Positions 22,901-62,810 of a DNA stretch of 64,000 nt are shown here, piece by piece (the first letter of the stretch is position 1; every line of letters begins with the position of its first letter). Origin of the DNA: an uncultured Mucispirillum sp. (GTDB lineage Bacteria; Chrysiogenota; Deferribacteres; Deferribacterales; Mucispirillaceae); NCBI GenBank assembly GCA_944325215.1, contig CALUZC010000016.1:4231-68230 (forward strand), written 5' to 3'. The notes under the pieces are model-generated. The model was not told the DNA's origin. It saw only the letters and a list, made by a program, of their open reading frames with translations, and searched no databases. A program made the position numbers and the translations under genes.

Positions 22901-22916
22901 AATATAACTCCACTTA

Positions 22917-45876: not shown

Positions 45877-46833
45877 TTAATCCTTTTGCATAGCTTTATC
45901 GTATGCTCTTACAATTTTTGAAACTAACGGGTGGCGAACAACATCTTTATCGCTAAATTTTATAAAAGCTATTTCATCAATACTATTTAATACATTCATA
46001 GCTGTAACAAGCCCAGAGCGTTTATCTGGTGGTAAATCTATTTGAGTAATATCTCCAGTAATTACAGCTTTTGAGTTAAAACCAAGACGAGTTAAAAACA
46101 TTTTCATTTGTTCTTCTGTAGTATTTTGTGCCTCATCTAAAATAACAAATGAGTCATTTAAGGTTCTGCCACGCATAAAAGCAAGCGGTGCAACTTCTAT
46201 TATACTTTTTTCTATTAGTTTTGTAACATAATCTATATCCATCATAGTATATAATGCATCATATAATGGTCTTAAATAAGGGTTTATTTTATCAGCAATA
46301 TCGCCCGGTAAAAACCCAAGTTTTTCACCAGCTTCCACAGCAGGTCTTGCTAAAATAATGCGGGAAACTTTTTTAGATAAAAACTGGTTTACAGCCATAG
46401 CCATAGCAAGATATGTTTTTCCAGTGCCTGCAGGGCCTATTCCAAAAATCATATCTTTTTCACTCATAGCTTTTATATATTCCTTTTGAGATGGTGATTT
46501 AGCTGTTACAATTTTTGCCCAGCCACCAACCTTAATATGTTCTGTTAAAACGCTGCTAATATCGATTTTTTCGCCTTTTGAAGCCATTTTTAAAGCATAT
46601 GCCACATCTTCTGATGATAACTCTCTTTTAGATGCAGTCTTAATTAATTCCTCAAAAAGATTAACTGTTCTTTCAATATTTTCACTATCTTCTGAAACAA
46701 TGGTAACATTTTCTCCCAGTGCTGATAAATGAACTTTCATACTTTTTTCAATATGCTTAATATTAGAATCCTGCCTGCCAAATATATAAGGCTGAATAGC
46801 TGCTGGAACTATAATCTCTTTTTGGATATTCAA
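45877..46833 (-). CDS. phoH: PhoH-like ATPase
   Basis: GPAGTGKTYLAMA Walker A motif. The N-terminus aligns with E. coli YbeZ. Apparent TTG start overlapping the upstream stop (TTGA). Confidence 0.88.
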   Translation of the reverse strand: MNIQKEIIVPAAIQPYIFGRQDSNIKHIEKSMKVHLSALGENVTIVSEDSENIERTVNLFEELIKTASKRELSSEDVAYALKMASKGEKIDISSVLTEHIKVGGWAKIVTAKSPSQKEYIKAMSEKDMIFGIGPAGTGKTYLAMAMAVNQFLSKKVSRIILARPAVEAGEKLGFLPGDIADKINPYLRPLYDALYTMMDIDYVTKLIEKSIIEVAPLAFMRGRTLNDSFVILDEAQNTTEEQMKMFLTRLGFNSKAVITGDITQIDLPPDKRSGLVTAMNVLNSIDEIAFIKFSDKDVVRHPLVSKIVRAYDKAMQKD

Positions 46834-51349: not shown

Positions 51350-51949
51350 CTATTTTTCTCCTGCAATCATATTTTTAGTAAAAGATTTAGAATAAAGAGA
51401 TATATTTTTAAAACCACTGCACTCCATAGCATATTTTATCTCCTCATAACTATATTCTTTCATATTTTTAATAAATTTTTCCCAAAAAACATTTTTCTTT
51501 CTTAAAACTTCCATAAAAATATATATTTTGCTATTAGGTTTCATAATTCTATATATTTCTTTAAATGCATTATGTAAATCTTTCCAAAAGTATATGGATT
51601 CAAAAGATACAACAATATCAAAATAATCATTTTTATAGGGAGTATTAAGCACACTGCTTTTGTTTAAATATACCTGTTTATTTAATTTTTCTTGATTTAA
51701 AATACTGGCTTTTTCAATGCTTTTTTCTGATATATCAATACCATATATATTACAACTGCTGTATTTTTCACTTATTATTTTTATTGCTGAACCACCACCG
51801 CATCCTATATCTAATATATTATCACCATCATTCACATTTAAATAAGATATACCCCACAAATGAAGTTTTCTATGACCTTTATTCATCATTTTGATTAATA
51901 AACTGCCTAATTTACCTTTAGGGTTTCCAAAATTTTCTAAAATATACAT
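51350..51949 (-). CDS. Class I SAM-dependent methyltransferase
   Basis: Motif I ILDIGCGGGSAI. 199 aa. Confidence 0.8.
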   Translation of the reverse strand: MYILENFGNPKGKLGSLLIKMMNKGHRKLHLWGISYLNVNDGDNILDIGCGGGSAIKIISEKYSSCNIYGIDISEKSIEKASILNQEKLNKQVYLNKSSVLNTPYKNDYFDIVVSFESIYFWKDLHNAFKEIYRIMKPNSKIYIFMEVLRKKNVFWEKFIKNMKEYSYEEIKYAMECSGFKNISLYSKSFTKNMIAGEK

Positions 51950-52141: not shown

Positions 52142-53416
52142 TTAATTTGATTGTGCACTAGGTAAATTTGCAGCTGCAGCATTATAGTTATCTTTTAAAG
52201 TTGTGCCTGCTGCTGTTGGAGTAGTATCATTAAAAAATTTACTTACTACATTTGTAGTAAATGATGCACTATCTGTATTAAAATCACTGTAATTATTTAC
52301 TCCACTTTTTTGTAATTCTGTAATAATCACTGGTACTATACTTGCGTTTGCATAAGCTGCATCTGATGCTGGATTAAATGTTGCAAGTTTAGTTCCACCA
52401 GCTTTTATTAATGCTCTATAAAATTCTAATGCTCTATTTTTAGATTTTTGAGTTGCAGTAGTTGACTCATAACCTGTTAAGCCAGATAATATCATTGTCG
52501 GAAAAATCATTTCATCCATTCCACTTGTTGAGATTGCTTCTTCATCTTGATTTCCGCTTGAAGAACTTTCAGCATAACCATATTTTTCAAAAATACCAGT
52601 TAATTTAGCCATTAATGCCATCATAGTAGGAAGAGCACTTGGCATACTGCCACCGTTTGCTAAAATAGGCATAACTTTAAATTCTGGTGTTGGTTTATCA
52701 TAGTTTACAATATTACTAGAATAATCACCTTGAGCAATAAAAGCCTGTGCTATTTCATCAAGCATTGCTTTCTCATTTGGTAAAACATATTCGTTCTTAA
52801 TACCTTGAATACCAGTTGAACTGTTGTTTAAATAACCTATTAATGATGAATTAAGATAAACAATATTTGCTCTTGCATTTGCTCTTGCATTTGCACTTAT
52901 ATTAGTGGCATTAAGAGCAGATTGTAATGAATCAGAAAGTGTAATAATACTTTGACTGTTATCATTAACTCTTTTTAATGTTGTAATTAAAGTTGACCCA
53001 CTGCCAGACATAAATATCTGCATAACAGATTGTAAAAAACTACTAGTAGGTTGGCTAAGAATACTATATTTTAATACTTCAGCACTAACAGGATTCTCTG
53101 CGATTATTTTTGCAATTGCTGTTGCTATTTCTTCATTTGCTACTTCACCAATCCCTGAAGCTGCTGGCATTCCACCTCTGCCAGTAATGTTTTGAAGCAG
53201 ACTTTTAATATTTGTTTCTGCTTGGCTGGAAAATGTGCCAGTATAAGCTGCACTTCCTGTGTCATCTGTTACATATTTTTTAAATTCATTAGTAAAAGCA
53301 TCATCAACTTTATTAAGCTGCTCTTGGGATGTCTGTCCATCTGTAGGCTTTGTAGTATCTTCAGCACAACCTGCTACTAAAAATACTAAAAAAGCAAATA
53401 ATAAAAATTTTTTCAT
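52142..53416 (-). CDS. Ala/Ser/Thr-rich surface lipoprotein containing an in-frame tandem repeat
   Basis: AGAGGT SD. Lipoprotein signal MKKFLLFAFLVFLVAGCAED. Low-complexity A/S/T/N composition, with the repeat ANARANARAN. Confidence 0.6.
   Translation of the reverse strand: MKKFLLFAFLVFLVAGCAEDTTKPTDGQTSQEQLNKVDDAFTNEFKKYVTDDTGSAAYTGTFSSQAETNIKSLLQNITGRGGMPAASGIGEVANEEIATAIAKIIAENPVSAEVLKYSILSQPTSSFLQSVMQIFMSGSGSTLITTLKRVNDNSQSIITLSDSLQSALNATNISANARANARANIVYLNSSLIGYLNNSSTGIQGIKNEYVLPNEKAMLDEIAQAFIAQGDYSSNIVNYDKPTPEFKVMPILANGGSMPSALPTMMALMAKLTGIFEKYGYAESSSSGNQDEEAISTSGMDEMIFPTMILSGLTGYESTTATQKSKNRALEFYRALIKAGGTKLATFNPASDAAYANASIVPVIITELQKSGVNNYSDFNTDSASFTTNVVSKFFNDTTPTAAGTTLKDNYNAAAANLPSAQSN
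52865..52900. repeat. 12-bp tandem repeat (atttgctcttgc x2 plus a degenerate third copy) encoding (ANAR)n inside the lipoprotein CDS
   Basis: Read directly. The unit length is a multiple of 3, so copy-number change would keep the frame. Confidence 0.5.
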
Positions 53417-53487
53417 TTTTTTACCTCTAATTAAAATTTTTTGATATTGAAAATCTTTATCAAATATCTCTCAAAAAAATTTGAATA

Positions 53488-54210
53488 TTATTTTAAGTAA
53501 AAATCCACAGGGACTGTTACTTTTAAATATTCATTATAAGAATTATTGTTTACAGCATTTAAGCCAACAATTTTTTGTGCTGCTTTTAGTGCAGCATTAT
53601 CAAGTACAGTATAACCAGAGCTTTTAGTTATTTCTGCACCTTGTACCACCCCATTTTTTTCTATAGAAAATGTAATATTTGTAATACCTTCTGCATTTAA
53701 CCTTCTAGCCTGCTTAGGGTATTCTTTATAACGCTCCATCATATAAACAATATTGGCAGCAGCTTCGTTTTTCATATCTTTTATTTTACTTACTTCACTA
53801 CCTGCTACTGCTTTTTGTGATGATTTTGCAACTTTTACATTTTCATTTTTGGGTTTAATTTTCTTAACTTCCTTTTTATCTTTTTCTTTTCTTGTTTCCT
53901 GTTTTGTTTCCTCCTTCTTTTTAATTTCTTTGTAACCATTATAGATTATAAATTCGCTGTAATCTGCTAGTAACCTCCTTTTTTCTTGGTTATTTATTTT
54001 TATATACTCAGTAGTATCTATACTCTCCTTTAAAAACTCTGCTTTTGCTACTTCAAGCACTTTTTGCGATACAAAACTTATATTTAGTATAAAAAGTACT
54101 AAAAATAATATAATAAGCATAAAAAAAGATATTCTTTTGCTTTTTATATATTCTTTCTCTCTCTCAAAATAGTTATGTATTGGATATGCTTTTTTTGCTT
54201 TAATATTCAT
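53488..54210 (-). CDS. tonB: TonB energy-transducer (N-terminal TM, Lys/Glu-rich spacer, C-terminal TonB domain)
   Basis: TM segment FFMLIILFLVLFILNISFV, spacer KKKEETKQETRKEKDKKEVKKIKPK, and a C-terminal domain of about 90 aa. Confidence 0.8.
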   Translation of the reverse strand: MNIKAKKAYPIHNYFEREKEYIKSKRISFFMLIILFLVLFILNISFVSQKVLEVAKAEFLKESIDTTEYIKINNQEKRRLLADYSEFIIYNGYKEIKKKEETKQETRKEKDKKEVKKIKPKNENVKVAKSSQKAVAGSEVSKIKDMKNEAAANIVYMMERYKEYPKQARRLNAEGITNITFSIEKNGVVQGAEITKSSGYTVLDNAALKAAQKIVGLNAVNNNSYNEYLKVTVPVDFYLK

Positions 54211-54216
54211 AATTTT

Positions 54217-54603
54217 TTATTCCACTACATCAGTGCTTATTATAAATTTTCCATTCCTTTCTTTTTTTGCAATATCAATAATATTTACAAATGATTGAAA
54301 AGGTGCTGATTTATCAATATAAAGATTTAACATCTTATCAGTATTTGCATCTAATATACTTTTAATTTCTTCTTCTTTTATTAATGTATTATTATAATAA
54401 ACATTACCGTCCTTTGTAACGGATATTAAAATTTCCTGTGTCTGAGTTTCCTTACCTTCTGCCATTTTAGATGCAGGAAGTATTACATCAAGCACAGGTT
54501 TTGAAAATGTGGTAGTCATTATAAAAAATATTAAAAGCATAAATACAACATCTATTAATGGTGTCAAATCAATATTTATTTCTTCATCAATATCAAATTT
54601 CAT
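54217..54603 (-). CDS. exbD: ExbD/TolR biopolymer transport protein
   Basis: AGGTGA SD. N-terminus INIDLTPLIDVVFMLLIFFIMTTTF is the ExbD signature. 128 aa. Confidence 0.85.
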   Translation of the reverse strand: MKFDIDEEINIDLTPLIDVVFMLLIFFIMTTTFSKPVLDVILPASKMAEGKETQTQEILISVTKDGNVYYNNTLIKEEEIKSILDANTDKMLNLYIDKSAPFQSFVNIIDIAKKERNGKFIISTDVVE

Positions 54604-54611
54604 AATATCAC

Positions 54612-55220
54612 CTAACCATTAGCATTATGTTTTTTACAAATGTCTAATGCTCTGTAACTGTGCTCAATAGCTTCAAAATTAAATGCTCTAAATTTTAGCA
54701 TTAAATAGTAATATATAATAAGTACTGGTATAGCAACCGTTAGCCCCATAATAGTTGTAAGCAATGCTTCCCATATACCACTTGCAAGGGAAGCAGCATC
54801 TGGGCTTTGCTCTACTGCTATCACCTGAAATACGCCAACCATACCTAAAACTGTACCTAAAAGCCCTAATAGTGGGGAAATAACTGAAATTAACCTAAGC
54901 CATACTAATGATTTTGATACATGCTCAAAATTTCTATGGAAAAGGTATGCAACCTCACTTCTTATATCTTCAGAATGTTCTCCATGTATGTTTATTATAT
55001 CCCTAATAATAGCTATTAATGGATTATTGGTATTATTACACGCTGAAATAATATCATTACGGCTTTCATAATCTTTATTTAAAAAGTTATGTTTAAACCC
55101 ACGCCATACAATATTTAGGTATATTAATATTCTAAGCCCTATAAATAGAGCAGCTACAGCACATATAATTAAAGCTATACCTGCATAACCTATTTGATTA
55201 TAAATAGTTACAATATCCAT
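54612..55220 (-). CDS. exbB: ExbB/TolQ (MotA family) proton channel
   Basis: Three TM helices and a conserved C-terminal MotA/TolQ/ExbB region. Confidence 0.85.
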   Translation of the reverse strand: MDIVTIYNQIGYAGIALIICAVAALFIGLRILIYLNIVWRGFKHNFLNKDYESRNDIISACNNTNNPLIAIIRDIINIHGEHSEDIRSEVAYLFHRNFEHVSKSLVWLRLISVISPLLGLLGTVLGMVGVFQVIAVEQSPDAASLASGIWEALLTTIMGLTVAIPVLIIYYYLMLKFRAFNFEAIEHSYRALDICKKHNANG

Positions 55221-55223
55221 AAC

Positions 55224-56441
55224 CTATAACCCTAAACGGTTTACAAACCCTGTAAATACATTTTTTGCCATTTCTAAATCATTATTATCTGGGTGAGTTT
55301 GAGCTTCTAAAAGCCTTTCTTTTCTTTCTGGAGTCATAGGGTGGCTGTCCCCCATAAATTTACCCATATAATCAATTAATTTTTCATCTATTTTCCCAAG
55401 ACATAAAAAGCTGCCTAACACATTATTATTTTTGCCAGAGATTTTAAGCATATTTTCACTATCTCTTATACAGCCTTTTGCATGTGGTGAATCAGGATAA
55501 GCTCCAAGAGTACCAAATAACCCTATATTCATATTTTTAATAGAGTTTATAAACTTTTTACTTTTTGCATCAGGAAGCCCTCTATCTACCCAGTAACCTA
55601 TGGCAAGAAAATAATATTCATCTATGTTTTCAGGCAAATTATCAATAGAGCATATATCACAGTTTGGTATAACGCTTTTAACTGCTTCTGCTACTTTTTT
55701 AGTATTACCTGTTAGAGATGAATAAACCACAAGGCTTTTTCTATCCAGCGATTTTTCCAGTGCAAACCCATCTTTCATTTTATAAAATGATGTTTTTACA
55801 CTTTCTATAATCTGCCTGTTTTGTCTGCCTGCATAAACTGAAAAAATTAATCCGCCTGATTTATCAAAAAATAATACAGAACAGCTTTCAAGAGTCATAA
55901 ATGGCATAGTTGAAAAGGCAATACTGTATATATTATCTGCTTTAATATGACCACCTAAAGCAGATTCACCCATTATATTATAATATCCATGAGCATTTGT
56001 GCCTTCATCTATTTTTGTAGATATTTCAAAAGCAGAGCCTTTATACTCTACTATAACTGTTGCTTTTTCCCAAGTGGCAAGTTCTTTCCAAATCATTTCA
56101 AAATGACTGCCTTTTGTAATAGTGCATATTTCTTTAGGCAGTGCATAACATACTTCAAGGTCACTTACACCATACATCTTTGCAAAAGCAGAAATAGTAA
56201 AGGGTTTTTTCTCCTGTAGTAAATTTGGTAAATCCTGTTTTAGTTTTTCAAACCCTAGCACTTTTTCTTCTATTATCTCCTCTATTTGAGGTTTATAATC
56301 AAAAGGTAATGGTGGTTTCCCACCTGCCATTTTATTTTCACTATTAGGGTGTTTTTCACCATGAGAATGTTCCCCTTTATGACCGTGGTTTTTTCCATGC
56401 TGATGTTTATGACCGTGTTGATTTTCTTCTTTATGGCTCAT
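55224..56441 (-). CDS. Three-part fusion: His-rich N-terminal tail + ChuX/HutX-like haem-binding domain + flavodoxin-like domain
   Basis: N-terminus MSHKEENQHGHKHQHGKNHGHKGEHSHGEKH. The middle (HGYYNIMGESALGGHIKADNIYSIAF...SVLFFDKSGGLIFSVYAGR) aligns with E. coli ChuX (HGYFNLRGKHGMSGHIKAEN...SILFFNKEGSAMLKIFLGRD). The C-terminus (LVVYSSLTGNTKKVAEAV...) is a flavodoxin fold. Confidence 0.7.
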   Translation of the reverse strand: MSHKEENQHGHKHQHGKNHGHKGEHSHGEKHPNSENKMAGGKPPLPFDYKPQIEEIIEEKVLGFEKLKQDLPNLLQEKKPFTISAFAKMYGVSDLEVCYALPKEICTITKGSHFEMIWKELATWEKATVIVEYKGSAFEISTKIDEGTNAHGYYNIMGESALGGHIKADNIYSIAFSTMPFMTLESCSVLFFDKSGGLIFSVYAGRQNRQIIESVKTSFYKMKDGFALEKSLDRKSLVVYSSLTGNTKKVAEAVKSVIPNCDICSIDNLPENIDEYYFLAIGYWVDRGLPDAKSKKFINSIKNMNIGLFGTLGAYPDSPHAKGCIRDSENMLKISGKNNNVLGSFLCLGKIDEKLIDYMGKFMGDSHPMTPERKERLLEAQTHPDNNDLEMAKNVFTGFVNRLGL

Positions 56442-56456
56442 ATTATCTCCTTTTTA

Positions 56457-57890
56457 TTAAACTGCCTGTTGCTTTAAACTGTCACTAAATGGCAGTCTAA
56501 TAGCATACTGGCATATATTATTTATTAATTCTAAATCATGGGTAATAACTACTACAGCCACCCCTTTATTCGCTAAATTTTGCAAAATATTTGTTATACG
56601 CATCATATTTCTTCCATCAAGCCCACTGGTTGGCTCATCAAGTATTATAATGCTTGGCTCTTTTGCAACGGCACAGGCTATTACAAGACGCTGTTTTTCT
56701 CCACCTGAAAGTGACTGCGGATGCCTTTCTTTTAAATGATATAAATCAAACTGGTTAAGCAGATTATTTGTTATTTCTTTTTTTTCATCTTCTGTAATAT
56801 TATTATGAGAAACATCTACACTCATATATATTTCATCATAAGTAGATTTCATATAAAGCTGAAAATCTGCATTTTGCAGCACAAGTGATGCAGTTTTTAC
56901 AAGTATTTTTTTATCTATCTCTTTATTATTTATAGTTATTTTTCCCGTAATATTTTTATTTATACCCGTTAAAAGTTTTGCAAGTGTGGTTTTACCTGCC
57001 CCATTTTCACCAAGAATGGCAGTTACTCCAAAAGGAACAGTAAATGATGCATTATTAAAAAGATTTTCTTTACCCTTATAGTTAAATGAAAGGTTTTCAA
57101 TATTAATAATATTTTTACTGCTGTTTTTATAATCTGCCAGCGTGCTGCGATTATCAGTAATTTCTATATCTCTTAAACCATATATTTTTCTAAATTCATT
57201 ATTAAGTAAAATACTAAAATCACCTTCTTTTACTATTTCACCTTTACTCATAACTATAAATCTATCTGCTATATCTTTTGTCCAGTAAAGCCTGTGGTCT
57301 ACAATTAAAATGGCATAGCCTTGTAATTTTAAATATTTTATTTTCTCTGCTAATTCATCAGTTGATTCCACATCTAAATTAGCAGTAGGTTCATCTAAAA
57401 TAATGACTTTTGCTTTTTGTAATATTATACCTGCAAGCCCAACTTTTTGTTTCTGCCCTTCTGATAAATCATTTACAGATGATGATAAAATATGCTGTAT
57501 TTTAAATTCATGAGCTGTTTTATTTATTTCTTTTTTTATTGTATCTGCATCTAATCCCTTGCACTCTAAAGCAAATGCAAGCTCATCATCCACATTTAAT
57601 GCGAAAAACTGCTGTTCTGGGTCTTGAAAAAGTGAGCCTGTATAATTTGAAAGCTCTCCTATGGTTTTTTCTTTTGTATTTTCATTACAGATAAATACAT
57701 CACCACTTAATTCGCCTTTATAATAATGAGGGCAAAGCCCATTAATAAGCCTAATAAGTGTAGTTTTGCCACATCCGCTGACACCAGTACAAACCACCAA
57801 TTCACCAGATTTAACTGATAAATTAATATTTTTTACAGCCTCTTTATTTTGATATGGGTATTTGTATGTTACATTTTCTAACCTTATCAT
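56457..57890 (-). CDS. ECF-type transporter ATPase, fused duplicated A/A' subunits
   Basis: Two ABC cassettes: GVSGCGKTT ... LSEGQKQKV and GENGAGKTT ... LSGGEKQRL. 477 aa. The stop overlaps the T-component start. Confidence 0.85.
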   Translation of the reverse strand: MIRLENVTYKYPYQNKEAVKNINLSVKSGELVVCTGVSGCGKTTLIRLINGLCPHYYKGELSGDVFICNENTKEKTIGELSNYTGSLFQDPEQQFFALNVDDELAFALECKGLDADTIKKEINKTAHEFKIQHILSSSVNDLSEGQKQKVGLAGIILQKAKVIILDEPTANLDVESTDELAEKIKYLKLQGYAILIVDHRLYWTKDIADRFIVMSKGEIVKEGDFSILLNNEFRKIYGLRDIEITDNRSTLADYKNSSKNIINIENLSFNYKGKENLFNNASFTVPFGVTAILGENGAGKTTLAKLLTGINKNITGKITINNKEIDKKILVKTASLVLQNADFQLYMKSTYDEIYMSVDVSHNNITEDEKKEITNNLLNQFDLYHLKERHPQSLSGGEKQRLVIACAVAKEPSIIILDEPTSGLDGRNMMRITNILQNLANKGVAVVVITHDLELINNICQYAIRLPFSDSLKQQAV

Positions 57891-58690
57891 CTATGTAAAC
57901 TCCTTAAGCTTTCAGGCACTTCAATATAGCTTTGTACAAAAAATGCACTTACTAATACTGTTGCAAAACTTATAAGAAGCAATAAATCATTTATAGAAAA
58001 CGATAATCTCTTATACGGTGTTACTTTTACATCGTTTCCTATTCCTTTTAATTCAGCAGCTATTCCCAATTCTTCTGAAGCTCTTAAAGACCTAAAAAGC
58101 AGTGGCATAAAAAGGTAGCGTCCCATTTTTACAGGTTGCTTTAAAAGAGTAATAAATTTTACTTCAATACCCCTTGTTGCAAGCGACTGCATTATCTGCT
58201 TTATATCGTTTATAAAAGCAGGAATAAACCTTATCATTACAGCTACTGGCAGGTAGATAAATAATGGCAGATTAAAACTTTTTAGTGCTGTTAATATACT
58301 TTGTATATTTGTAGTAAAAGCTAAGGGAAGCACTACATTTACCATAGTGACCATACGCATAAAAGGAACTGTTATGGCAAAATATGACCTGCCCTGCATA
58401 AAATTTGTAAAATAATTTATTATATATATGCTTGTAACAGCGATTATCATAATAATAGTTACAAAAAGATAAGTAAGAACCATTACTTTTGGTTTTCTCA
58501 TATATAATGCATATATAAATGAAGCAGCTAAAAGCACTATTTGAGCATATATACTGCTTAATATAATAGCAGCAAGCGAAGTCAGTGCTGTAATAATAAG
58601 CTTTGTTCTAACATCTATTAAATATAAGCCTTTTAATTGAATATTATTTTTAACAGATAAACTTGTATTAACTGCGAACGATTCCTGCAT
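57887..58690 (-). CDS. ECF transporter transmembrane (T) component, CbiQ/EcfT family
   Basis: 267 aa with 5-6 TM helices and a C-terminal coupling region, RSLRASEELGIAAELKGIG. The ends overlap with neighbouring genes on both sides. Confidence 0.75.
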   Translation of the reverse strand: MQESFAVNTSLSVKNNIQLKGLYLIDVRTKLIITALTSLAAIILSSIYAQIVLLAASFIYALYMRKPKVMVLTYLFVTIIMIIAVTSIYIINYFTNFMQGRSYFAITVPFMRMVTMVNVVLPLAFTTNIQSILTALKSFNLPLFIYLPVAVMIRFIPAFINDIKQIMQSLATRGIEVKFITLLKQPVKMGRYLFMPLLFRSLRASEELGIAAELKGIGNDVKVTPYKRLSFSINDLLLLISFATVLVSAFFVQSYIEVPESLRSLHR

Positions 58691-59213
58691 ACCTTAACTC
58701 CTTAACAGCTTTTATTCCTGTATATAACCCAATTATAGCCCCTAGATATCCTATAGCAATAATAGGTATAACAGCATATACAATTTCAGGTGTTTCTCTC
58801 ATAACCATATAAGCTAAAAACATAGAAAGCACTCTGTAAGATAAATCAAAAGCTGCTACACCAATAATTGGAGCATATTTATTCTTCATACCACCAAAAA
58901 GAAGTATAAAAAATTCACCAATAAATGAAGCCATAAACATTCCTAAAGAGGTGGAAGCTTCTGCCCCCATTAAAAGCAGTGATACTATTAATGATACAAA
59001 TGTAAAAAGCATAATCGTTCCACTTTTTCTTACCTTGTAAAGCATAACTATGAAAAAAGTAGTAAATATAAGGTTTTTAATAAGCAGAGTAACAGGGTTC
59101 ATTCCACCACCTGCTAAAGCAACAACCATTGTAATAACTTTTGCAGCAGCTGCAAAAACACCTATTGTTACAAGCTCTTGTATACTCCAGTGATGTTTTA
59201 AGTTTTTATACAT
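58668..59213 (-). CDS. Putative ECF substrate-capture (S) component of unknown specificity (haem inferred from context)
   Basis: 181 aa with 5-6 TM helices and a size typical of S components. It is positioned immediately upstream of the T component and ATPase. Confidence 0.55.
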   Translation of the reverse strand: MYKNLKHHWSIQELVTIGVFAAAAKVITMVVALAGGGMNPVTLLIKNLIFTTFFIVMLYKVRKSGTIMLFTFVSLIVSLLLMGAEASTSLGMFMASFIGEFFILLFGGMKNKYAPIIGVAAFDLSYRVLSMFLAYMVMRETPEIVYAVIPIIAIGYLGAIIGLYTGIKAVKELRYAGIVRS

Positions 59214-59229: not shown

Positions 59230-61320
59230 TTAAAAAGCTGCCGAAAATTTTACGGCTCCATATAAGCCCGGTTCATATATATCTACAGATGTTTTATATA
59301 GTGTATTCAACAGGTTATAAACTTCTGTAGACAAGCTATATTGTCTATCCTTACCAAAATCTACACTTATTGCTATATTTGCAGTGCCCCATGGTGCATA
59401 ATATAAGTCTGATGTAAACTCTGAATGGATAGAATCAAGACTGTCTATGGTTTCACTTGAAAACCTGCTAAATAAATCAATGGATAAATCAACATAATCA
59501 TTAAATGTATGTAAATAAGCAAGACCTGCCCTGCCTGATACTAAAGGAACTCCTGTTTTCCATGTATAAACCCCATTATCACTATATCTTCTTTGCATTA
59601 TAGTAAGTGAAGTATATGGTTTTAGCCCAATAGGCGATGTATAAGATAAAGAAAGCTCTGCTCCATGAGTTAATGCGTTTGATACATTTTTATATTTTGT
59701 AGCAGAAGAACCTGTACTAACTGGCACTTGTGCTATATAGTTATCTGCCAGTGATACAAAGTACACAGCATCTAAACCAACACCGTAATCATTATATCTA
59801 ATACCAAACTCAAAATTATTGCTTGTTTCAGATTTTAAATCAGGGTTAGGGTAAATGGTGCCACCACCCATTGATGATAATAGATACCGTTCCTGTAAAT
59901 TAGGTGAACGAAAGCCTTGTGAAAAATTAAACCTTATACTAAAATTTTCTATTCCAGACCACATAATACCTGCTGCAAATACTGGAGCGTTGGTTGATGA
60001 TATACCTGTATTTCCTATATCTTCAACACTTAATGGCGTTGAACTTCCTGTAATTTTATCTATTCTAACCCCTGCTGCTTTTTCCATATTTGCAATGTTA
60101 TATGTCCATCTTACACCATAGAATAATGTAAAATCCAAAGGCAGGTAAGATTCAGCTTGAGCATATAAAGCATGTATCTGTTCATAACCATAGTTTTTTA
60201 CATGTTTATTGTAATTCATAACATCTAAAATAGTGCTTGTGGAATCAACACTTGTATCAGCATCTAGAATATTATAATTAAAATCATAACCTGCTATAAT
60301 ATATGTATGGTCACTTATTGCCCAGTCTGTTTGAAGCTGCAACCCCCACTGGTTATTATAATTATCTGCATAGTTATCCATTGTAGCAGGCATAAATACT
60401 ACATTTGGGTCAAGCTCCACATGGTTATGCATTTTTTTATGGCTTTGCTGGTAAAATAAATCAAGCCTTAGTTTTGGCATAAAAGATACAGCTTCTTTTA
60501 CTTCAAAAAATAATGCTGCTTTTTGGCGAGACCATAATGGTAAATCTACATAAAATTTTTCATATCCTACAGCCTGACTGCCTGAAGATATATCTGAAGT
60601 AAAATAATCATAACTTGCACCTAGTTTATAGTTATCATTAAAATTATACGCTAAATATGCACTATAATTTTGCTGTTCAAAAGCAGAATACGGCACTAAA
60701 CCAATAGGTGTTCTTAGCTGCTGCTGCATATTATTTGATGCTGTAACTCTGTATTCTACTCCATGAGTTTTACCAAAAATAGAAGCAGATTCAGAATGCC
60801 CTTGAGAAGCACCGTTATAGGAAAGATTAATAGAGCCTTCTATTGGTTTTTTACCACCTTTTTTTGTGATGATATTAATAACACCACCAATAGCGTTGGA
60901 GCCATAAAGCACAGATGATGGCCCACGAATAATTTCTATACGTTCAATTAATGCAGTATCTATCATTAATGCTGTGCCGTCCATAGATTTATTTTCAACT
61001 ATCTGTTGTCCATCAATTAATATTAAAGTTCTATTAACTCCCTCACCACGAAGAGATATTCTTTTTAGCCCCTGCCCTCCAGAATTTGATATCTGCACTC
61101 CAGGAACATCTTGTAAAAGTTCACCAACTGTTCTAGCTGATGATTTTTTAATATCTTCTTCTGTTACTATAGAAACAGAAGAAGGCACTTCTAAAAGCTC
61201 TTTTTCAACTTTTGTGGCTGTCACCTTTACTGCCGTTGTTTTAATATGGTTTTCTTCTTGAGCATAACTATTAAAACTTACAAATAATATTAAAACAGTA
61301 CAAACGACTATCTTTATCAT
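59230..61320 (-). CDS. TonB-dependent outer-membrane receptor
   Basis: Signal peptide ...SYA/QEE. Plug-domain motifs (VTATKVEKE...VPGVQISNSGG...ISLRGEG...ILIDGQ). Barrel of about 600 aa ending in the aromatic terminus ...FSAAF. Confidence 0.85.
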   Translation of the reverse strand: MIKIVVCTVLILFVSFNSYAQEENHIKTTAVKVTATKVEKELLEVPSSVSIVTEEDIKKSSARTVGELLQDVPGVQISNSGGQGLKRISLRGEGVNRTLILIDGQQIVENKSMDGTALMIDTALIERIEIIRGPSSVLYGSNAIGGVINIITKKGGKKPIEGSINLSYNGASQGHSESASIFGKTHGVEYRVTASNNMQQQLRTPIGLVPYSAFEQQNYSAYLAYNFNDNYKLGASYDYFTSDISSGSQAVGYEKFYVDLPLWSRQKAALFFEVKEAVSFMPKLRLDLFYQQSHKKMHNHVELDPNVVFMPATMDNYADNYNNQWGLQLQTDWAISDHTYIIAGYDFNYNILDADTSVDSTSTILDVMNYNKHVKNYGYEQIHALYAQAESYLPLDFTLFYGVRWTYNIANMEKAAGVRIDKITGSSTPLSVEDIGNTGISSTNAPVFAAGIMWSGIENFSIRFNFSQGFRSPNLQERYLLSSMGGGTIYPNPDLKSETSNNFEFGIRYNDYGVGLDAVYFVSLADNYIAQVPVSTGSSATKYKNVSNALTHGAELSLSYTSPIGLKPYTSLTIMQRRYSDNGVYTWKTGVPLVSGRAGLAYLHTFNDYVDLSIDLFSRFSSETIDSLDSIHSEFTSDLYYAPWGTANIAISVDFGKDRQYSLSTEVYNLLNTLYKTSVDIYEPGLYGAVKFSAAF

Positions 61321-62720
61321 AAACTCACCTTTTCACCTGTTAAATTATTACTACTGTTAAACTGCAAAGTCAGTTTAATATATTCCTGCAAAAGCTGTGA
61401 AAGGTTTACAAACCAAAACTGACCTGCAAGTGTTAAAATAATTTTATTATTTTCATATTTAATAACACCTGCATTTTCCCACTGTTTTAATAATCTGCTG
61501 CAAATATCAGTAAGTGGAAGGTTATATTTATTTTCTAAATATGCCAAATCTAAATAACCTGTTTCAAAATATTCACTTATTTCTTTATACATGCTGTAAT
61601 TTTCACCTGGTATGCTTATACCCATAATTGGTTTTACGCCATTTTTCACAGCTGCTAAATAGCCTTGATAATCACGCAGTATCATATAACTGTGACCATT
61701 AATATTTCCACCTGCTCCTGCACCAAAAGAAAGGCAGCTGGCATAACCACGAGCAAGCCTGTTATATATATTTCTTTCTCTTGTAGTTCTTTGCCAATGG
61801 TTTACACTAATTCTTGTGTATAGTGCCTTCTGCATAAGCTCTACACTTTTTATAAACAGCTCTGTTTTCTCTTTAACATTTAAGGCAGGGTTCATACTGC
61901 CATCTGCAATACGTTTACCAAGAGGGGTGTTTGGAAATACATTTAACTGGTAGCAGTCAAACCCATCTATTTCTAAACTTTGAGCAAGTTTTATATCATC
62001 AACCCAAATATCCATAGTCTGATTAGGAAACCCATATATTAAATCAAGCACAACAGCAGCCTGATTATATTCTTTTATCATATTAATTCTTTCTATAATT
62101 GTATCTCTGTCACTTCTTCTACCCATTGAGCGTCTTAAATCAGTATTAAAACTTTGCACTCCTAAAGAAAACCTGTTTACACCACCTTGAAGGTATGCTT
62201 CAACTTTTTCTTTTGTCATATTAGAAATTCTACCTTCCATAGTAATTTCACAATCATTGGCAAGAGGAAATGTATTATGAATATAAGTTAAAAGCCTTGA
62301 TATATCTTCCACTTCTAAGGCTGTAGGTGTGCCACCACCAAAATAAAGTGCATTTATAGGTTTTGTTTTAAATGCAGTAGTATTTTCCCAAAGTTTAATT
62401 TCCTGAATTAAAACATCTGTATATATTCTACTCTGCTCTTTTCTATAAGGCTGATTATAAAATCCACAGTATAAACAGTGGGTTTCACAAAATGGAACAT
62501 GAATATATGCAGCAGTTCTATTATTCCTTTCTTGGTTTAAAACACTTTTTAAAACTTCCTGAGTCTGCTCTTTTGGTGCAAAGCTATCCATAAGTCCTGC
62601 ATGCACTGCCGACTTTTTACTAAAAGCATCAACAATAACATTATCACTTTCATTTACACAATATCTTTCAAAATTATCTTCTGGATTTATATTTTCTATT
62701 TTTTTATGAAAAGTATCCAT
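61317..62720 (-). CDS. HemN-family radical SAM enzyme, HutW/ChuW-like (candidate anaerobic haem-degrading methyltransferase)
   Basis: I chose the start at ATG 62720 (AAGGAAG SD). Radical SAM cluster motif CETHCLYCGF, with a HemN_C-like C-terminal domain. It is the first gene of the operon that contains the TonB-dependent receptor and the ChuX-like gene. Confidence 0.75.
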   Translation of the reverse strand: MDTFHKKIENINPEDNFERYCVNESDNVIVDAFSKKSAVHAGLMDSFAPKEQTQEVLKSVLNQERNNRTAAYIHVPFCETHCLYCGFYNQPYRKEQSRIYTDVLIQEIKLWENTTAFKTKPINALYFGGGTPTALEVEDISRLLTYIHNTFPLANDCEITMEGRISNMTKEKVEAYLQGGVNRFSLGVQSFNTDLRRSMGRRSDRDTIIERINMIKEYNQAAVVLDLIYGFPNQTMDIWVDDIKLAQSLEIDGFDCYQLNVFPNTPLGKRIADGSMNPALNVKEKTELFIKSVELMQKALYTRISVNHWQRTTRERNIYNRLARGYASCLSFGAGAGGNINGHSYMILRDYQGYLAAVKNGVKPIMGISIPGENYSMYKEISEYFETGYLDLAYLENKYNLPLTDICSRLLKQWENAGVIKYENNKIILTLAGQFWFVNLSQLLQEYIKLTLQFNSSNNLTGEKVSL

Positions 62721-62793
62721 GCTCACTTCCTTTATATTGATTTTATTTCTCAATAACATATACATCATTTAATAATTATTTGCAAGAGATTTT

Positions 62794-62810
62794 TTGATAT
62801 TTATTATCAA
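62794..62810. promoter_or_regulatory. Imperfect AT-rich palindrome ttgatatttattatcaa in the divergent promoter region. Candidate Fur-like operator.
   Basis: Read directly. 13/17 positions are symmetric and it resembles GATAAT-type Fur half-sites. Specificity is low in an AT-rich genome. Confidence 0.2.

What the first reader, a model, noticed from the sequence alone, without database searches (positions are those of the whole stretch)
55224..56441. Single polypeptide fusing a histidine-rich tail, a ChuX/HutX haem-binding domain and a flavodoxin domain
The central approximately 170 aa align with E. coli ChuX; the local motifs are HGYYNIMGESALGGHIKADN versus HGYFNLRGKHGMSGHIKAEN, and VLFFDKSGGLIFSVYAGR versus ILFFNKEGSAMLKIFLGRD. 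The C-terminal approximately 150 aa are a flavodoxin fold (SSLTGNT P-loop).

The first approximately 40 aa are 40% His (HGHKHQHGKNHGHKGEHSHGEKH), a likely metal- or haem-binding tail.

ChuW needs a flavodoxin to reduce its 4Fe-4S cluster, and ChuX hands haem to ChuW. A physical fusion of the haem carrier with the reductase partner has not, to my knowledge, been described. It would co-localise substrate delivery and electron delivery.
Basis: partly seen in the sequence, partly recalled or inferred. Interest (0 to 1): 0.72.

Follow-up and report, generated by a model that had tools for sequence, protein, structure and literature searches.

The report
Fused haem carrier and anaerobilin-reductase-type flavoprotein
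A gut bacterium (Mucispirillum) has joined two neighbouring genes of its oxygen-free haem-breakdown pathway, a haem carrier and a haem-binding flavoprotein, into one protein with a histidine-rich tail, which shows the two parts work together but is a variation on a known pathway rather than a new one.

Summary
Window 55224-56441 (-) is one intact 405-aa ORF. It has a disordered His-rich tail (about residues 1-37), a HutX/ChuX haem-carrier domain (about 60-228) and a flavodoxin-fold domain (about 234-405).

The interpretation needs correcting. The C-terminal domain is not a classical one-electron flavodoxin. It belongs to the HmuF/FldH subclass (Pfam Flavodoxin_3; best PDB match 8g64). It keeps the FMN phosphate loop, the helical cap and the haem-ligand histidine (His367 = FldH His134). 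Characterised members bind haem over FMN and reduce anaerobilin by hydride transfer, and a separate flavodoxin reduced the radical-SAM cluster. The likeliest reading is therefore a haem carrier fused to a product-detoxifying reductase.

The gene lies in a tight operon: HutW, TonB-dependent receptor, ECF importer, the fusion, ExbB-ExbD-TonB. At least 62 species genomes (Bilophila wadsworthia, Desulfovibrio, Mailhella, Geobacter) carry the same cassette with hutX and the flavodoxin_3 gene separate but adjacent. The fusion occurs in Mucispirillum and one Deferribacterales MAG. It also arose elsewhere, including in the reversed domain order.

The His tail occurs in only some Mucispirillum species, and its function is unknown. 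I found no paper describing the fusion. Databases label it simply "HutX". Verdict: a new variant of a known kind, of moderate interest.

The parts
55224..56441 (-). Whole fusion ORF, 405 aa: His-rich tail, HutX domain and HmuF/FldH-type flavodoxin domain
   Evidence: ORF listing. Pfam and NCBIfam domains. 99% identical to a protein of an uncultured Mucispirillum sp. MAG (L012).
56447..56452 (-). Shine-Dalgarno-like AAGGAG, 5 nt upstream of the ATG
   Evidence: Read directly from the sequence. It supports translation from the ATG that includes the His-rich tail.
56331..56441 (-). His-rich, low-complexity N-terminal tail (residues 1-37; 10 His)
   Evidence: Composition. AF2 pLDDT is below 50 for residues 1-59. 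No Pfam family matches. A weak 18-nt tandem repeat lies underneath it. In relatives the tail varies in length, can be His/Cys-rich or is absent.
56265..56330 (-). Pro- and acid-rich spacer (residues 38-59), predicted disordered
   Evidence: AF2 model. The motif P-F-x-Y...EE-I/V-IEEKV is conserved within the Mucispirillum clade.
55758..56264 (-). HutX/ChuX haem-carrier domain (residues about 60-228)
   Evidence: TIGR04108 138 bits and PF06228 82 bits. PDB 2ph0, 5exv, 2ovi and 6u9j match at E 1e-23 to 1e-27. Foldseek TM 0.82-0.86 to HutX/ChuX crystal structures.
55947..55949 (-). Codon of His165, equivalent to ChuX His98
   Evidence: Alignment to 2ovi. Invariant in all fusion variants and in the unfused L009 sequence. 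The role of ChuX His98 in haem binding is recalled from Suits et al. 2009, which I could not read.
55743..55757 (-). Short interdomain linker (residues 229-233), at the position of the stop/start overlap of the unfused genes
   Evidence: Co-linear alignment with the concatenated L009 HutX and Flavodoxin_3 proteins, whose genes overlap by ATGA. A5-nt gap separates the genes in L040.
55224..55742 (-). HmuF/FldH-type FMN domain (Pfam Flavodoxin_3; residues 234-405, plus the stop codon)
   Evidence: PF12641 163 bits. PDB 8g64 (haem-bound FldH) at E 1.4e-24 and Foldseek E 1.8e-12, TM 0.75. Residue mapping.
55701..55721 (-). FMN phosphate-binding loop S241-S-L-T-G-N-T247
   Evidence: Aligned to FldH Ser9-Thr14, which PMC10404700 describes as the phosphate loop.
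55287..55394 (-). Helical cap sub-domain (residues about 350-385), equivalent to FldH Lys116-His150
   Evidence: The AF2 model has helices 353-362 and 371-379 inserted between strand 340-348 and the last helix. Their pLDDT of about 57-62 is consistent with a mobile element. Alignment to FldH.
55341..55343 (-). Codon of His367, equivalent to the FldH haem axial ligand His134
   Evidence: Alignment. Invariant in 27 clade members and in all fusion variants aligned in A3. The codon GTG on the + strand reads CAC on the coding strand.
61317..62768 (-). HutW/ChuW anaerobic haem-degrading radical SAM methyltransferase. The true start is probably the ATG at 62720.
   Evidence: TIGR04107 497.9 bits against a cut-off of 400. 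An RBS precedes the internal ATG. Homologues are 465-466 aa.
62795..62809 (.). Fur-box-like 7-1-7 palindrome TGATATTTATTATCA upstream of hutW
   Evidence: One mismatch to TGATAATNATTATCA. Statistical support is weak (6 hits in the window against 2.5 expected).
59230..61320 (-). TonB-dependent outer-membrane receptor, closest to the haem/haemoglobin receptor subfamily
   Evidence: Plug and beta-barrel Pfam domains. TIGR01785 is the best NCBIfam hit at 196.5 bits, but below its cut-off of 316.85.
56457..59213 (-). ECF-type importer: S component (58668-59213), T component (57887-58690) and fused A-A' ATPase (56457-57890)
   Evidence: Trep_Strep, CbiQ and 2x ABC_tran Pfam domains. NCBIfam ECF models are the best hits for all three genes (MptD-family S component, ECF_T_CbiQ, ECF ATPases), all below their cut-offs. 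Conserved next to hutW in all related cassettes examined.
53488..55220 (-). ExbB (54612-55220), ExbD (54217-54603) and TonB (53488-54210)
   Evidence: Pfam MotA_ExbB, ExbD and TonB_C. Gaps between these genes are 3-8 nt.
52142..53416 (-). Lipoprotein of unknown family that follows TonB. Its membership of the system is uncertain.
   Evidence: Lipobox signal only. No PDB relative. A 427-aa counterpart occupies the same position in L002. A Fur-like box lies upstream at 53448-53462.

Best explanation
**What it is.** The ORF is a gene fusion of two neighbouring, normally translationally coupled genes of an anaerobic haem-iron acquisition cassette. One is hutX, a cytosolic haem carrier. The other is an hmuF/fldH-type flavodoxin_3 gene, which encodes an FMN protein with a helical cap that holds a tetrapyrrole against the flavin.

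**Proposed pathway.**
1. Haem crosses the outer membrane through the TonB-dependent receptor, powered by ExbB-ExbD-TonB.
2. It crosses the inner membrane through the ECF-type importer.
3. The HutX domain captures it in the cytoplasm and presents it to the radical SAM enzyme HutW.
4. HutW opens the ring, releasing Fe2+ and the reactive linear tetrapyrrole anaerobilin.
5. The tethered HmuF-type domain binds anaerobilin (or haem, through His367) in its cap cleft and reduces it by hydride transfer from FMNH-.
6. The FMN is recharged by an unidentified external reductase.

The fusion fixes a 1:1 ratio and keeps substrate delivery next to product detoxification.

**The tail.** The disordered His-rich N-terminal tail is a recent, lineage-specific add-on that probably binds a metal (Fe2+ or another divalent ion) or extra haem.

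**Shown here.** Domain identities, conserved cofactor and ligand residues, operon context, unfused ancestors and recurrent fusion.

**Inferred.** All binding and catalytic steps, the order of hand-over, and the role of the tail.
For: **Domain assignment.** HMMs are. The AF2 model has pTM 0.73, and its fold matches are TM 0.85 to HutX/ChuX and TM 0.75 to haem-bound FldH 8g64. Ordinary flavodoxins are about six orders of magnitude weaker in E-value.

**FldH functional residues conserved.** These are the P-loop S242-T247, W284/D286, T311, H320 (FldH His89, flavin N3), G349-K350, H367 (haem ligand His134) and A380/H383/P384/D388. Their roles are described in PMC10404700.

**Biochemistry of the characterised relatives (PMC10404700).**
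- There is no semiquinone, and the two-electron potential is -323 mV.
- They bind haem and anaerobilin.
- They traffic haem to HmuW.
- They reduce anaerobilin.

**Operon.** Ten co-directional genes have overlaps or gaps of 16 nt or less from hutW to tonB. Synteny is conserved in related genomes.

**Unfused ancestor form.** L009 and Bilophila wadsworthia ATCC 49260 (L046) have the same cassette with separate hutX and flavodoxin_3 genes overlapping by ATGA. The fusion aligns co-linearly to their concatenation at 45% identity.

**Distribution.** Of the 80 best species-representative loci, 62 are split-adjacent and 9 are fused.

**Recurrent fusion.**
- P0050 is an independent HutX-to-Fld fusion.
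- P0051, P0053 and P0068 are fused in the reverse order.
- All four sit in the same HutW/ECF cassette.
- A neighbour-joining tree places the fusions in at least three separate positions.

**Tetrapyrrole link.** Flavodoxin_3 is also fused to the tetrapyrrole enzymes CbiC and CbiK.
Against: - No biochemistry exists for this protein or for any HutX-HmuF pair.
- McGregor et al. argue that HmuF alone replaces ChuX/ChuS and ChuY in Fusobacterium. Why both a HutX and a haem-binding HmuF module are kept here is therefore not explained, and the order of hand-over is a guess.
- FldH Lys92, which pairs with a haem propionate, is Gly323 here.
- ChuX His65 is Glu132.
- The position aligned to V. cholerae HutX Tyr90 alternates between Tyr, Phe and Met among relatives. 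The haem ligation of the HutX domain is therefore uncertain.
- The cap region has only moderate model confidence.
- The interdomain packing is inferred from pTM alone, because no PAE or coordinates were available.
- The reductase that recharges the FMN is not identified, and no classical flavodoxin or Fur gene lies in this 64-kb window.
Confidence: 0.65

Rival explanations
1. The flavodoxin domain is the one-electron donor that reduces the [4Fe-4S] cluster of HutW, so the fusion couples haem delivery with electron delivery. A modified version has the FMN hydroquinone passing electrons through the bound haem to the cluster.
For: - ChuW needs flavodoxin, flavodoxin reductase and NADPH in vitro (PMC10114669).
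- In V. cholerae HutW the haem substrate mediates electron transfer from a hydride donor (NADPH) to the cluster (PMC10035031). A domain that stacks haem on FMN could in principle do the same.
- BilS, a relative in the same Pfam family, is thought to be an electron-transfer partner of the bilirubin reductase BilR (PMC10769871).
- The Mucispirillum operon has no classical flavodoxin gene, and none lies in the window.
Against: - The domain fails the classical flavodoxin HMM (18.6 bits against a cut-off of 25) and belongs to the HmuF/FldH subclass.
- That subclass does not stabilise a semiquinone. In the published assays a separate flavodoxin was needed to reduce HmuW.
- The unfused cassettes in Bilophila-type genomes carry a classical Flavodoxin_1 gene as well as the Flavodoxin_3 gene, which implies distinct roles.
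- The haem ligand and cap, which are features for binding a tetrapyrrole rather than a protein partner, are conserved.
Confidence: 0.15
2. The HmuF-type domain acts mainly before ring opening. It receives haem from the HutX domain, reduces Fe3+-haem to Fe2+-haem and presents it to HutW. The HutX domain serves as a buffer, store or regulator, and anaerobilin reduction is secondary or absent.
For: - HmuF and FldH bind haem tightly through His134. The haem is reduced (-115 mV) before the FMN, and haem-loaded HmuF is a substrate donor for HmuW.
- His367 is invariant.
- ChuX has been described as a regulator of haem degradation by ChuS (title of ref. 235 listed in PMC12670364).
Against: - The same published work shows anaerobilin reduction by HmuF and FldH, so both activities probably coexist.
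- Nothing in the sequence separates the two roles.
- This is a variant of the best explanation rather than an exclusive alternative.
Confidence: 0.15
3. The long ORF is an artefact: two genes joined by a sequencing or assembly frameshift, or a pseudogene.
For: The closest non-Mucispirillum relatives have two genes that overlap by 4 nt or lie a few nt apart. A single-base error there could mimic a fusion.
Against: - The same single ORF is found in 9 species-level genomes of different origin.
- It recurs on dozens of independent contigs.
- The linker is conserved at the protein level.
- Both domains keep their functional residues.
Confidence: 0.02

Closest known systems
HmuF / FldH of Fusobacterium nucleatum (PDB 8g64; McGregor et al. 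2023, PMC10404700)
   Same: - The C-terminal 170 aa share the Pfam family Flavodoxin_3.
- They keep the FMN phosphate loop, the flavin-contact residues, the helical cap, the haem-ligand His and the linker motif A-x-x-H-P-x-x-x-D.
- The gene is encoded in a haem-uptake operon with a ChuW/HutW-type radical SAM enzyme.
   Different: - HmuF and FldH are stand-alone proteins of about 170 aa, said to replace ChuX/ChuS and ChuY. Here the module is covalently joined to a HutX domain, and in many other genomes it is encoded next to one.
- Identity is only about 33-40%.
- FldH Lys92 is Gly.
- No biochemical data exist for this protein.
HutX (Vibrio cholerae, PDB 5exv) and ChuX (E. coli O157:H7, PDB 2ovi and 6u9j)
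   Same: - Residues about 60-228 score above the NCBIfam HutX cut-off.
- The fold matches at TM about 0.85.
- The H-G-Y-x-N...G-H-I/L-K motif is conserved.
- The gene is associated with hutW.
   Different: - Those proteins are stand-alone (160-190 aa), and their operons pair them with HutZ or ChuY rather than with an HmuF-type flavoprotein.
- ChuX His65 is not conserved here.
- This protein has an N-terminal His-rich extension.
ChuY (E. coli), an NADPH-dependent anaerobilin reductase
   Same: Probable functional analogue of the C-terminal domain: it reduces the product of the radical SAM ring opening. In E. coli the gene order is chuW-chuX-chuY, so carrier and reductase are neighbours there too.
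   Different: The fold is unrelated (similar to biliverdin IX-beta reductase, according to PMC10404700) and it uses NADPH directly. There is no sequence homology, and it is not fused to ChuX.
ChuS / PhuS / HemS cytosolic haem proteins
   Same: The HutX fold is related to each half of these proteins (Foldseek E about 1e-6). They are another way of building a larger haem-handling protein from the same fold.
   Different: They are tandem duplications of the HutX-like fold, not a fusion to a flavoprotein.
LhaSTA of Staphylococcus lugdunensis, an ECF-type haem importer (PMC7299338)
   Same: The operon here also uses an ECF-type S/T/A transporter in a haem-acquisition locus.
   Different: LhaSTA is in a Gram-positive bacterium with Isd proteins. 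[quoted passage not shown] Homology of the S components was not tested.

Membership tests
HutX/ChuX cytosolic haem carrier (NCBIfam TIGR04108; Pfam PF06228) | Scores above the curated family cut-offs | tested here: met
   TIGR04108 138.3 bits against 110. PF06228 82.4 bits against 25.
HutX/ChuX cytosolic haem carrier (NCBIfam TIGR04108; Pfam PF06228) | HutX/ChuX fold (antiparallel beta-sheet with peripheral helices) | tested here: met
   The AF2 model matches 2ph0, 5exv, 6u9j and 2ovi at target-normalised TM 0.82-0.86, rmsd 2.5-2.9 A.
HutX/ChuX cytosolic haem carrier (NCBIfam TIGR04108; Pfam PF06228) | Conserved residues implicated in haem binding: ChuX His65 and His98, and V. cholerae HutX Tyr90 (roles recalled from the literature, not re-read) | tested here: inconclusive
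   The His98 equivalent (His165) is invariant. The His65 equivalent is Glu132. The Tyr90 equivalent is Tyr153 here but Phe or Met in relatives. The primary papers were not available.
HutX/ChuX cytosolic haem carrier (NCBIfam TIGR04108; Pfam PF06228) | Encoded with a ChuW/HutW haem-degrading radical SAM enzyme and haem-uptake genes | tested here: met
   It is in the same tight operon as HutW (TIGR04107, 497.9 bits) and a TonB-dependent receptor.
HutX/ChuX cytosolic haem carrier (NCBIfam TIGR04108; Pfam PF06228) | Binds haem 1:1 and delivers it to the degrading enzyme | not testable with these tools
   Needs a UV-visible haem titration and transfer assays.
HmuF/FldH subclass of the flavodoxin superfamily (Pfam PF12641 Flavodoxin_3) | Scores above the PF12641 cut-off and is closest to FldH among solved structures | tested here: met
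   163 bits against 27.5. 8g64 matches at E 1.4e-24 by sequence and E 1.8e-12 by Foldseek, while the next flavodoxin-like hit is at about 2e-6.
HmuF/FldH subclass of the flavodoxin superfamily (Pfam PF12641 Flavodoxin_3) | FMN phosphate loop and flavin-contact residues (FldH Ser9-Thr14, Lys56/Ala57, Thr80, Ala82/Ala83, His89, Gly115/Lys116) | tested here: met
   The equivalents are S242-L-T-G-N-T247, R287/G288, T311, G313/A314, H320 and G349/K350. The substituted positions make backbone contacts in FldH.
HmuF/FldH subclass of the flavodoxin superfamily (Pfam PF12641 Flavodoxin_3) | Helical cap sub-domain inserted before the last helix, with linker residues Ala147, His150, Pro151 and Asp155 | tested here: met
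   The AF2 model has helices 353-362 and 371-379. A380, H383, P384 and D388 are conserved.
HmuF/FldH subclass of the flavodoxin superfamily (Pfam PF12641 Flavodoxin_3) | Proximal haem ligand His134 | tested here: met
   His367 aligns with His134. It is invariant in 27 clade members and in the fusion variants of A3.
HmuF/FldH subclass of the flavodoxin superfamily (Pfam PF12641 Flavodoxin_3) | Lys92 ion pair with a haem propionate | tested here: not met
   The aligned residue is Gly323, and the neighbouring Lys322 (FldH Lys91) is present. The position varies across the family and the authors do not list it as conserved.
HmuF/FldH subclass of the flavodoxin superfamily (Pfam PF12641 Flavodoxin_3) | No stable semiquinone, and hydride transfer to anaerobilin | not testable with these tools
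   Needs a redox titration and an anaerobilin reduction assay.
Classical flavodoxin (Pfam PF00258), a one-electron donor to radical SAM clusters | Scores above the family cut-off | tested here: not met
   PF00258 gives 18.6 bits against 25, covering only the N-terminal 67 residues. By contrast, the separate 148-aa gene of the Bilophila cassette scores 90.3 bits.
BilS (NCBIfam NF045594), the flavodoxin-like partner of bilirubin reductase BilR | Scores above the equivalog cut-off and is encoded next to bilR | tested here: not met
   95 bits against a cut-off of 155. No bilR-like (Old Yellow Enzyme) gene is in the operon.

The most novel reading that the evidence does not exclude
HutX and the HmuF-type flavoprotein are not alternatives, as the Fusobacterium work suggested. 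Instead they are two halves of one obligate shuttle that docks on HutW and hands haem in. It takes anaerobilin out without releasing it to the cytoplasm and reduces it. In Mucispirillum it also catches the liberated Fe2+ on the His/Cys-rich tail. On this reading the fusion is a natural, structurally tractable snapshot of a substrate-channelling complex for anaerobic haem catabolism. That complex would be widespread in gut Desulfovibrionaceae (including Bilophila wadsworthia) and in Deferribacterota.
Probability: 0.3. Interest if true: 0.62.

Novelty: new variant of a known kind. Interest (0 to 1): 0.48.

Why it matters
Anaerobic haem degradation (ChuW/HutW/HmuW) is a recently discovered route by which gut and oral anaerobes extract iron. 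How the toxic substrate and product are handled around the radical SAM enzyme is still unsettled.

- **Cooperation rather than redundancy.** The recurrent fusion, in both domain orders, and the conserved adjacency in more than 60 species are strong genomic evidence that the HutX carrier and the HmuF-type haem/anaerobilin flavoprotein act together. The published view from Fusobacterium is that HmuF substitutes for ChuX.
- **Function of the flavoprotein.** The evidence points away from an 'electron donor for the cluster' role for this flavoprotein.
- **Experimental handles.** The fusion is a single-chain construct suited to structural work on the hand-over. The cassette also occurs in Bilophila wadsworthia, represented here by a culture-collection strain (ATCC 49260), where it could be tested. 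Mucispirillum is a core mouse-gut pathobiont.
- **A wider cassette.** The work exposes a conserved cassette that pairs a TonB-dependent receptor with an ECF-type importer in diderm bacteria.

It does not reveal a new chemistry or a new protein family.

Tried and rejected
- **Frameshift or assembly artefact.** Rejected.
- **Classical flavodoxin or BilS membership.** Tested and not met.
- **His-rich tail against Pfam at E up to 10.** Only insignificant resemblance to the His-rich loops of selenoprotein P and ZIP transporters. An 18-nt imperfect tandem repeat hints at slippage. No function could be assigned.
- **Word-indexed homologue search.** It returned only the close Mucispirillum clade. The exhaustive representative search was needed to find distant fusions, and it lists only the best 150 of 1075 hits, so more fusions may exist.
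- **Foldseek against AFDB50.** Not available.
- **Primary papers on ChuX (PMC2762594) and on ChuS/ChuX with ChuW (PMC7189753).** Not held. No held paper mentions HutX Tyr90. Statements about those ligands therefore rest on memory.
- **Literature search including 'BilS'.** It was swamped by 'BiLSTM' papers.
- **Searches for Mucispirillum haem uptake.** Nothing specific was found.
- **Fur box.** The 19-mer consensus gave no hit in the hutW promoter. The 7-1-7 form gave a one-mismatch hit there, but the window-wide enrichment is weak.
- **Promoter consensus scan.** Uninformative in this AT-rich DNA: 67 sites found against 74 expected.
- **Classical flavodoxin or Fur gene in the window.** tblastn found none.
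- **Interdomain geometry.** It could not be examined, because the structure tool returns no coordinates or PAE.
Full report

Yes. The ORF listing gives one uninterrupted 405-aa ORF at 55224..56441 on the minus strand. Its ATG is preceded by AAGGAG and a 5-nt spacer, and it lies 15 nt after the stop of the preceding ABC ATPase gene (sequence).

- Pfam finds ChuX_HutX at residues 87-210 (82.4 bits) and Flavodoxin_3 at 237-396 (163 bits).
- NCBIfam finds HutX (TIGR04108) at 138.3 bits, above its cut-off of 110.
- The His-rich tail is real: 10 His in residues 3-31. The '40%' figure applies only to the quoted 23-residue string.
- An AlphaFold2 model built on 27 homologues has mean pLDDT 74 and pTM 0.73. 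It shows residues 1-59 as disordered, a HutX-like domain (about 60-228), a short linker and a flavodoxin-like domain (about 234-405).
- Foldseek matches the model to HutX/ChuX crystal structures (TM 0.82-0.86) and to FldH 8g64 (TM 0.75).
- The ORF is not a frameshift artefact. Several distinct 405-aa members of its 90%-identity cluster were each seen on 2 to 32 contigs. The single ORF also occurs in nine species-level genomes.

**2. Which organism and which operon?**

The best genome match is an uncultured Mucispirillum sp. MAG (99% identity), followed by a Mucispirillum schaedleri isolate (98%). The window's G+C content of about 30% fits.

The gene is the sixth of ten co-directional genes. 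From hutW to tonB they overlap or are separated by at most 16 nt. In order:
- HutW/ChuW radical SAM methyltransferase (TIGR04107, 497.9 bits against a cut-off of 400)
- a TonB-dependent receptor closest to the haem-receptor subfamily
- an ECF-type importer: a Trep_Strep/MptD-like S component, a CbiQ-like T component and a fused A-A' ATPase
- the fusion protein
- ExbB, ExbD and TonB
- after a 71-nt gap, a lipoprotein of unknown family

A Fur-like 7-1-7 palindrome with one mismatch lies upstream of hutW (62795-62809), but its statistical support is weak. The same gene order is conserved in other Mucispirillum genomes.

**3. What is the 'flavodoxin'?**

- The domain fails the classical flavodoxin model (PF00258, 18.6 bits against a cut-off of 25) and belongs to Flavodoxin_3.
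- Its only close solved relative is 8g64, haem-bound FldH of Fusobacterium nucleatum (E 1.4e-24).

McGregor et al. (PMC10404700) report the following for FldH and its operon-encoded paralogue HmuF:
- They bind FMN and haem.
- A helical cap (Lys116-His150) holds the haem flat on the flavin, with His134 as the iron ligand.
- They form no semiquinone, and the two-electron potential is -323 mV.
- They deliver haem to HmuW.
- They then reduce the ring-opened product, anaerobilin, by hydride transfer.
- In those assays a separate classical flavodoxin (FnFld) served as the one-electron donor to the HmuW [4Fe-4S] cluster.

Mapping the FldH residues onto this protein gives:
- the phosphate loop S242-L-T-G-N-T247
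- W284/D286/R287/G288
- T311, G313 and A314
- H320 (FldH His89, which contacts flavin N3)
- G349-K350
- His367 (His134, the haem ligand)
- the linker residues A380, H383, P384 and D388

His367 is invariant in 27 clade members and in the fusion variants aligned in A3. The model shows two inserted helices (353-362 and 371-379) where the cap should be, with lower confidence, as expected for a mobile element. The only mapped contact that is not kept is FldH Lys92, which is Gly323 here. The C-terminal module is therefore best described as an HmuF/FldH-type haem- and anaerobilin-binding FMN reductase domain, not as a flavodoxin that feeds the radical SAM cluster.

**4. Where did the fusion come from?**

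The exhaustive search of 1.84 billion representatives and a scan of species-representative genomes give a clear picture.

*Unfused form.*
- The closest stand-alone HutX (P0056, 45% identity) lies in a contig (L009) with the same cassette. Its order is classical Flavodoxin_1, Fur, HutW, TonB-dependent receptor, ECF S/T/AA', HutX (177 aa), Flavodoxin_3 (170 aa), ExbB, ExbD, TonB.
- The two L009 genes overlap by ATGA. Their concatenated products align co-linearly with the window protein at 45% identity over 347 positions. The stop/start junction falls exactly at the window protein's linker.
- Bilophila wadsworthia ATCC 49260 has the same unfused arrangement (L046).

*Distribution.* Of the 80 best loci among species representatives:
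- 62 have hutX and the flavodoxin_3 gene as separate adjacent ORFs. These are Desulfovibrionaceae, Mailhella, Bilophila, Desulfoluna, Geobacter, Trichlorobacter and one Deferribacteraceae MAG (L040).
- 9 have a single fused ORF: eight Mucispirillum species and one Deferribacterales MAG (L020).
- 9 have only the flavodoxin part or are truncated.

*Other fusions.*
- P0050 is a HutX-to-Flavodoxin_3 fusion from a high-G+C metagenome contig.
- P0051 (uncultured Desulfuromonas sp.), P0053 and P0068 are Flavodoxin_3-to-HutX fusions, that is, in the reversed order.
- All four sit in the same HutW/ECF cassette.

*Tree.* A rough neighbour-joining tree of the concatenated domains shows:
- The Mucispirillum and L020 fusions are sister to the split L040.
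- P0050 falls among the split Geobacter and Trichlorobacter sequences.
- The reversed fusions lie near the base.

That implies at least three fusion events. Recurrent fusion in both orders is classical 'Rosetta stone' evidence that the two proteins function together physically.

**5. The His-rich tail.**

- It is confined to part of the Mucispirillum clade (five of eight species representatives).
- It varies from about 30 to about 70 residues and often also contains Cys (HGHCHG, ECGSH).
- It is absent from other Mucispirillum species, from L020 and from all split HutX proteins.
- It is predicted disordered, matches no family and overlies a weak 18-nt repeat.
- It always stays in frame with the domains, so it is translated sequence, but it is evolutionarily labile.
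- Desulfovibrionaceae HutX proteins often begin with a Cys pair (MTASCCQTS, MTTCPATPCQT). Soft-ligand N-termini may therefore be a recurring theme.

Binding of the released Fe2+, another metal or extra haem is plausible, but it remains only an inference.

**6. How it most likely works.**

*Shown here:* domain identities, conserved cofactor and ligand residues, operon membership, unfused ancestry and recurrent fusion.

*Inferred from the characterised families:*
1. Haem is imported by the TonB-dependent receptor and the ECF transporter.
2. The HutX domain captures it.
3. It is offered to HutW, which opens the ring and releases iron and anaerobilin.
4. The tethered HmuF-type domain binds and reduces anaerobilin, using FMN that is recharged by an unidentified reductase.

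The fusion guarantees 1:1 stoichiometry and proximity. I put this at about 0.65.

*Rivals:*
- **Electron donor to the cluster (0.15).** The flavoprotein supplies electrons to the HutW cluster, perhaps through the bound haem, as reported for NADPH-driven V. cholerae HutW (PMC10035031). This is consistent with BilS being viewed as an electron-transfer partner (PMC10769871). It is disfavoured by the subclass's lack of a semiquinone and by the extra classical flavodoxin gene in the unfused cassettes.
- **Action before ring opening (0.15).** The HmuF-type domain acts mainly as a haem reductase and presenter, with HutX as a buffer. This overlaps with the main model.
- **Artefact (0.02).**

**7. Comparison with what is known, and novelty.**

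- Each domain passes the membership tests of its family, except for features that need biochemistry.
- The pathway (ChuW/HutW/HmuW with a carrier and a reductase) is known.
- I found no paper that mentions a HutX/ChuX-flavodoxin fusion or the HutX-HmuF pairing.
- The JBC paper proposes that HmuF supplants ChuX/ChuS and ChuY.
- The sequences themselves are already in public databases with both Pfam domains recorded. NCBI names them only 'heme utilization cystosolic carrier protein HutX'.

This is therefore a new variant of a known kind. It is a useful genomic argument that the carrier and the flavoprotein cooperate, and a convenient single-chain object for experiments. It is not a new mechanism or family. 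The 'carrier plus cluster reductase' idea that motivated that score is not what the evidence supports, and the fusion is simply the joining of two adjacent genes of a widespread cassette.

**8. Limits.**

- No coordinates or PAE were available, so interdomain packing rests on pTM alone.
- Only the best 150 of the 1075 representative hits and the best 80 of the 547 genome loci were inspected.
- The tree is a quick neighbour-joining tree on BLOSUM distances.
- The haem ligands of ChuX and HutX are quoted from memory, because the primary papers were not held.

Noticed in passing
window 56457-59213 (-), with 59230-61320 and 53488-55220: An ECF-type importer (Trep_Strep-like S, CbiQ-like T, fused A-A' ATPase) stands where a periplasmic-binding-protein ABC system is usual in a diderm haem-uptake operon. 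It lies between a TonB-dependent receptor and ExbBD-TonB. The same pairing with HutW is conserved in Bilophila wadsworthia (S component 51% identical), Desulfuromonas and others. The published ECF haem importers I found (LhaSTA, L. sakei) are from Gram-positive bacteria.
   Followed up: partly
window 52142-53416 (-): A 424-aa lipoprotein follows TonB and has no Pfam domain beyond the lipobox and no PDB relative. A 427-aa counterpart holds the same position in another Mucispirillum genome (L002), and a Fur-like box lies upstream (53448-53462). It is a candidate surface haem-binding protein.
   Followed up: partly
window 62720-62768 (-): The mechanically listed HutW ORF (483 aa) probably starts 16 codons too early. 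The ATG at 62720 has an AAGGAAG ribosome-binding site, and homologues are 465-466 aa.
   Followed up: partly
window 62795-62809 and 53448-53462: Fur-box-like 7-1-7 palindromes lie in the two promoter-like gaps of the cluster (one and two mismatches). Window-wide enrichment is weak (6 found against 2.5 expected).
   Followed up: partly
L043, L046, L047, L050, L051, L053, L054, L057, L060, L065 (Desulfovibrionaceae hutX genes): Stand-alone HutX proteins of Bilophila and Desulfovibrio types begin with a Cys pair (MTASCCQTS, MTETCCRTT, MTTCPATPCQT). This may be a counterpart of the His/Cys-rich tail in Mucispirillum.
   Followed up: no
proteins P0130, P0155, P0054, P0166: Other fusions involve the same domains: Flavodoxin_3 with CbiC (precorrin-8X methylmutase), Flavodoxin_3 with CbiK (cobalt chelatase), and a tandem Flavodoxin_3. 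There is also a 679-aa protein combining PCP_red, a HutW-like radical SAM domain and HutX. Together they point to a general tetrapyrrole-handling role for Flavodoxin_3.
   Followed up: no
window 51350-51949 (-); L009 11316-11945: A SAM-dependent methyltransferase lies just downstream of the cluster. A 27%-identical counterpart (E 6e-33) lies downstream of TonB in the unfused Bilophila-type cassette, so it may be a conserved accessory gene.
   Followed up: partly
window 14896-22942 (-): A 1913-aa bacterial alpha-2-macroglobulin gene is directly followed by a PBP1C-type penicillin-binding protein (Transgly, Transpeptidase, BiPBP_C). This is a known gene pairing.
   Followed up: no
window 46830-49460 (-): An 876-aa protein combines DHH, CBS and PolyA_pol (CCA-adding / poly(A) polymerase head) domains.
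   Followed up: no
L007 3626-5182; P0166: Some HutW homologues carry an N-terminal PCP_red (protochlorophyllide-reductase 57-kD subunit-like) domain. The window's HutW lacks it.
   Followed up: no
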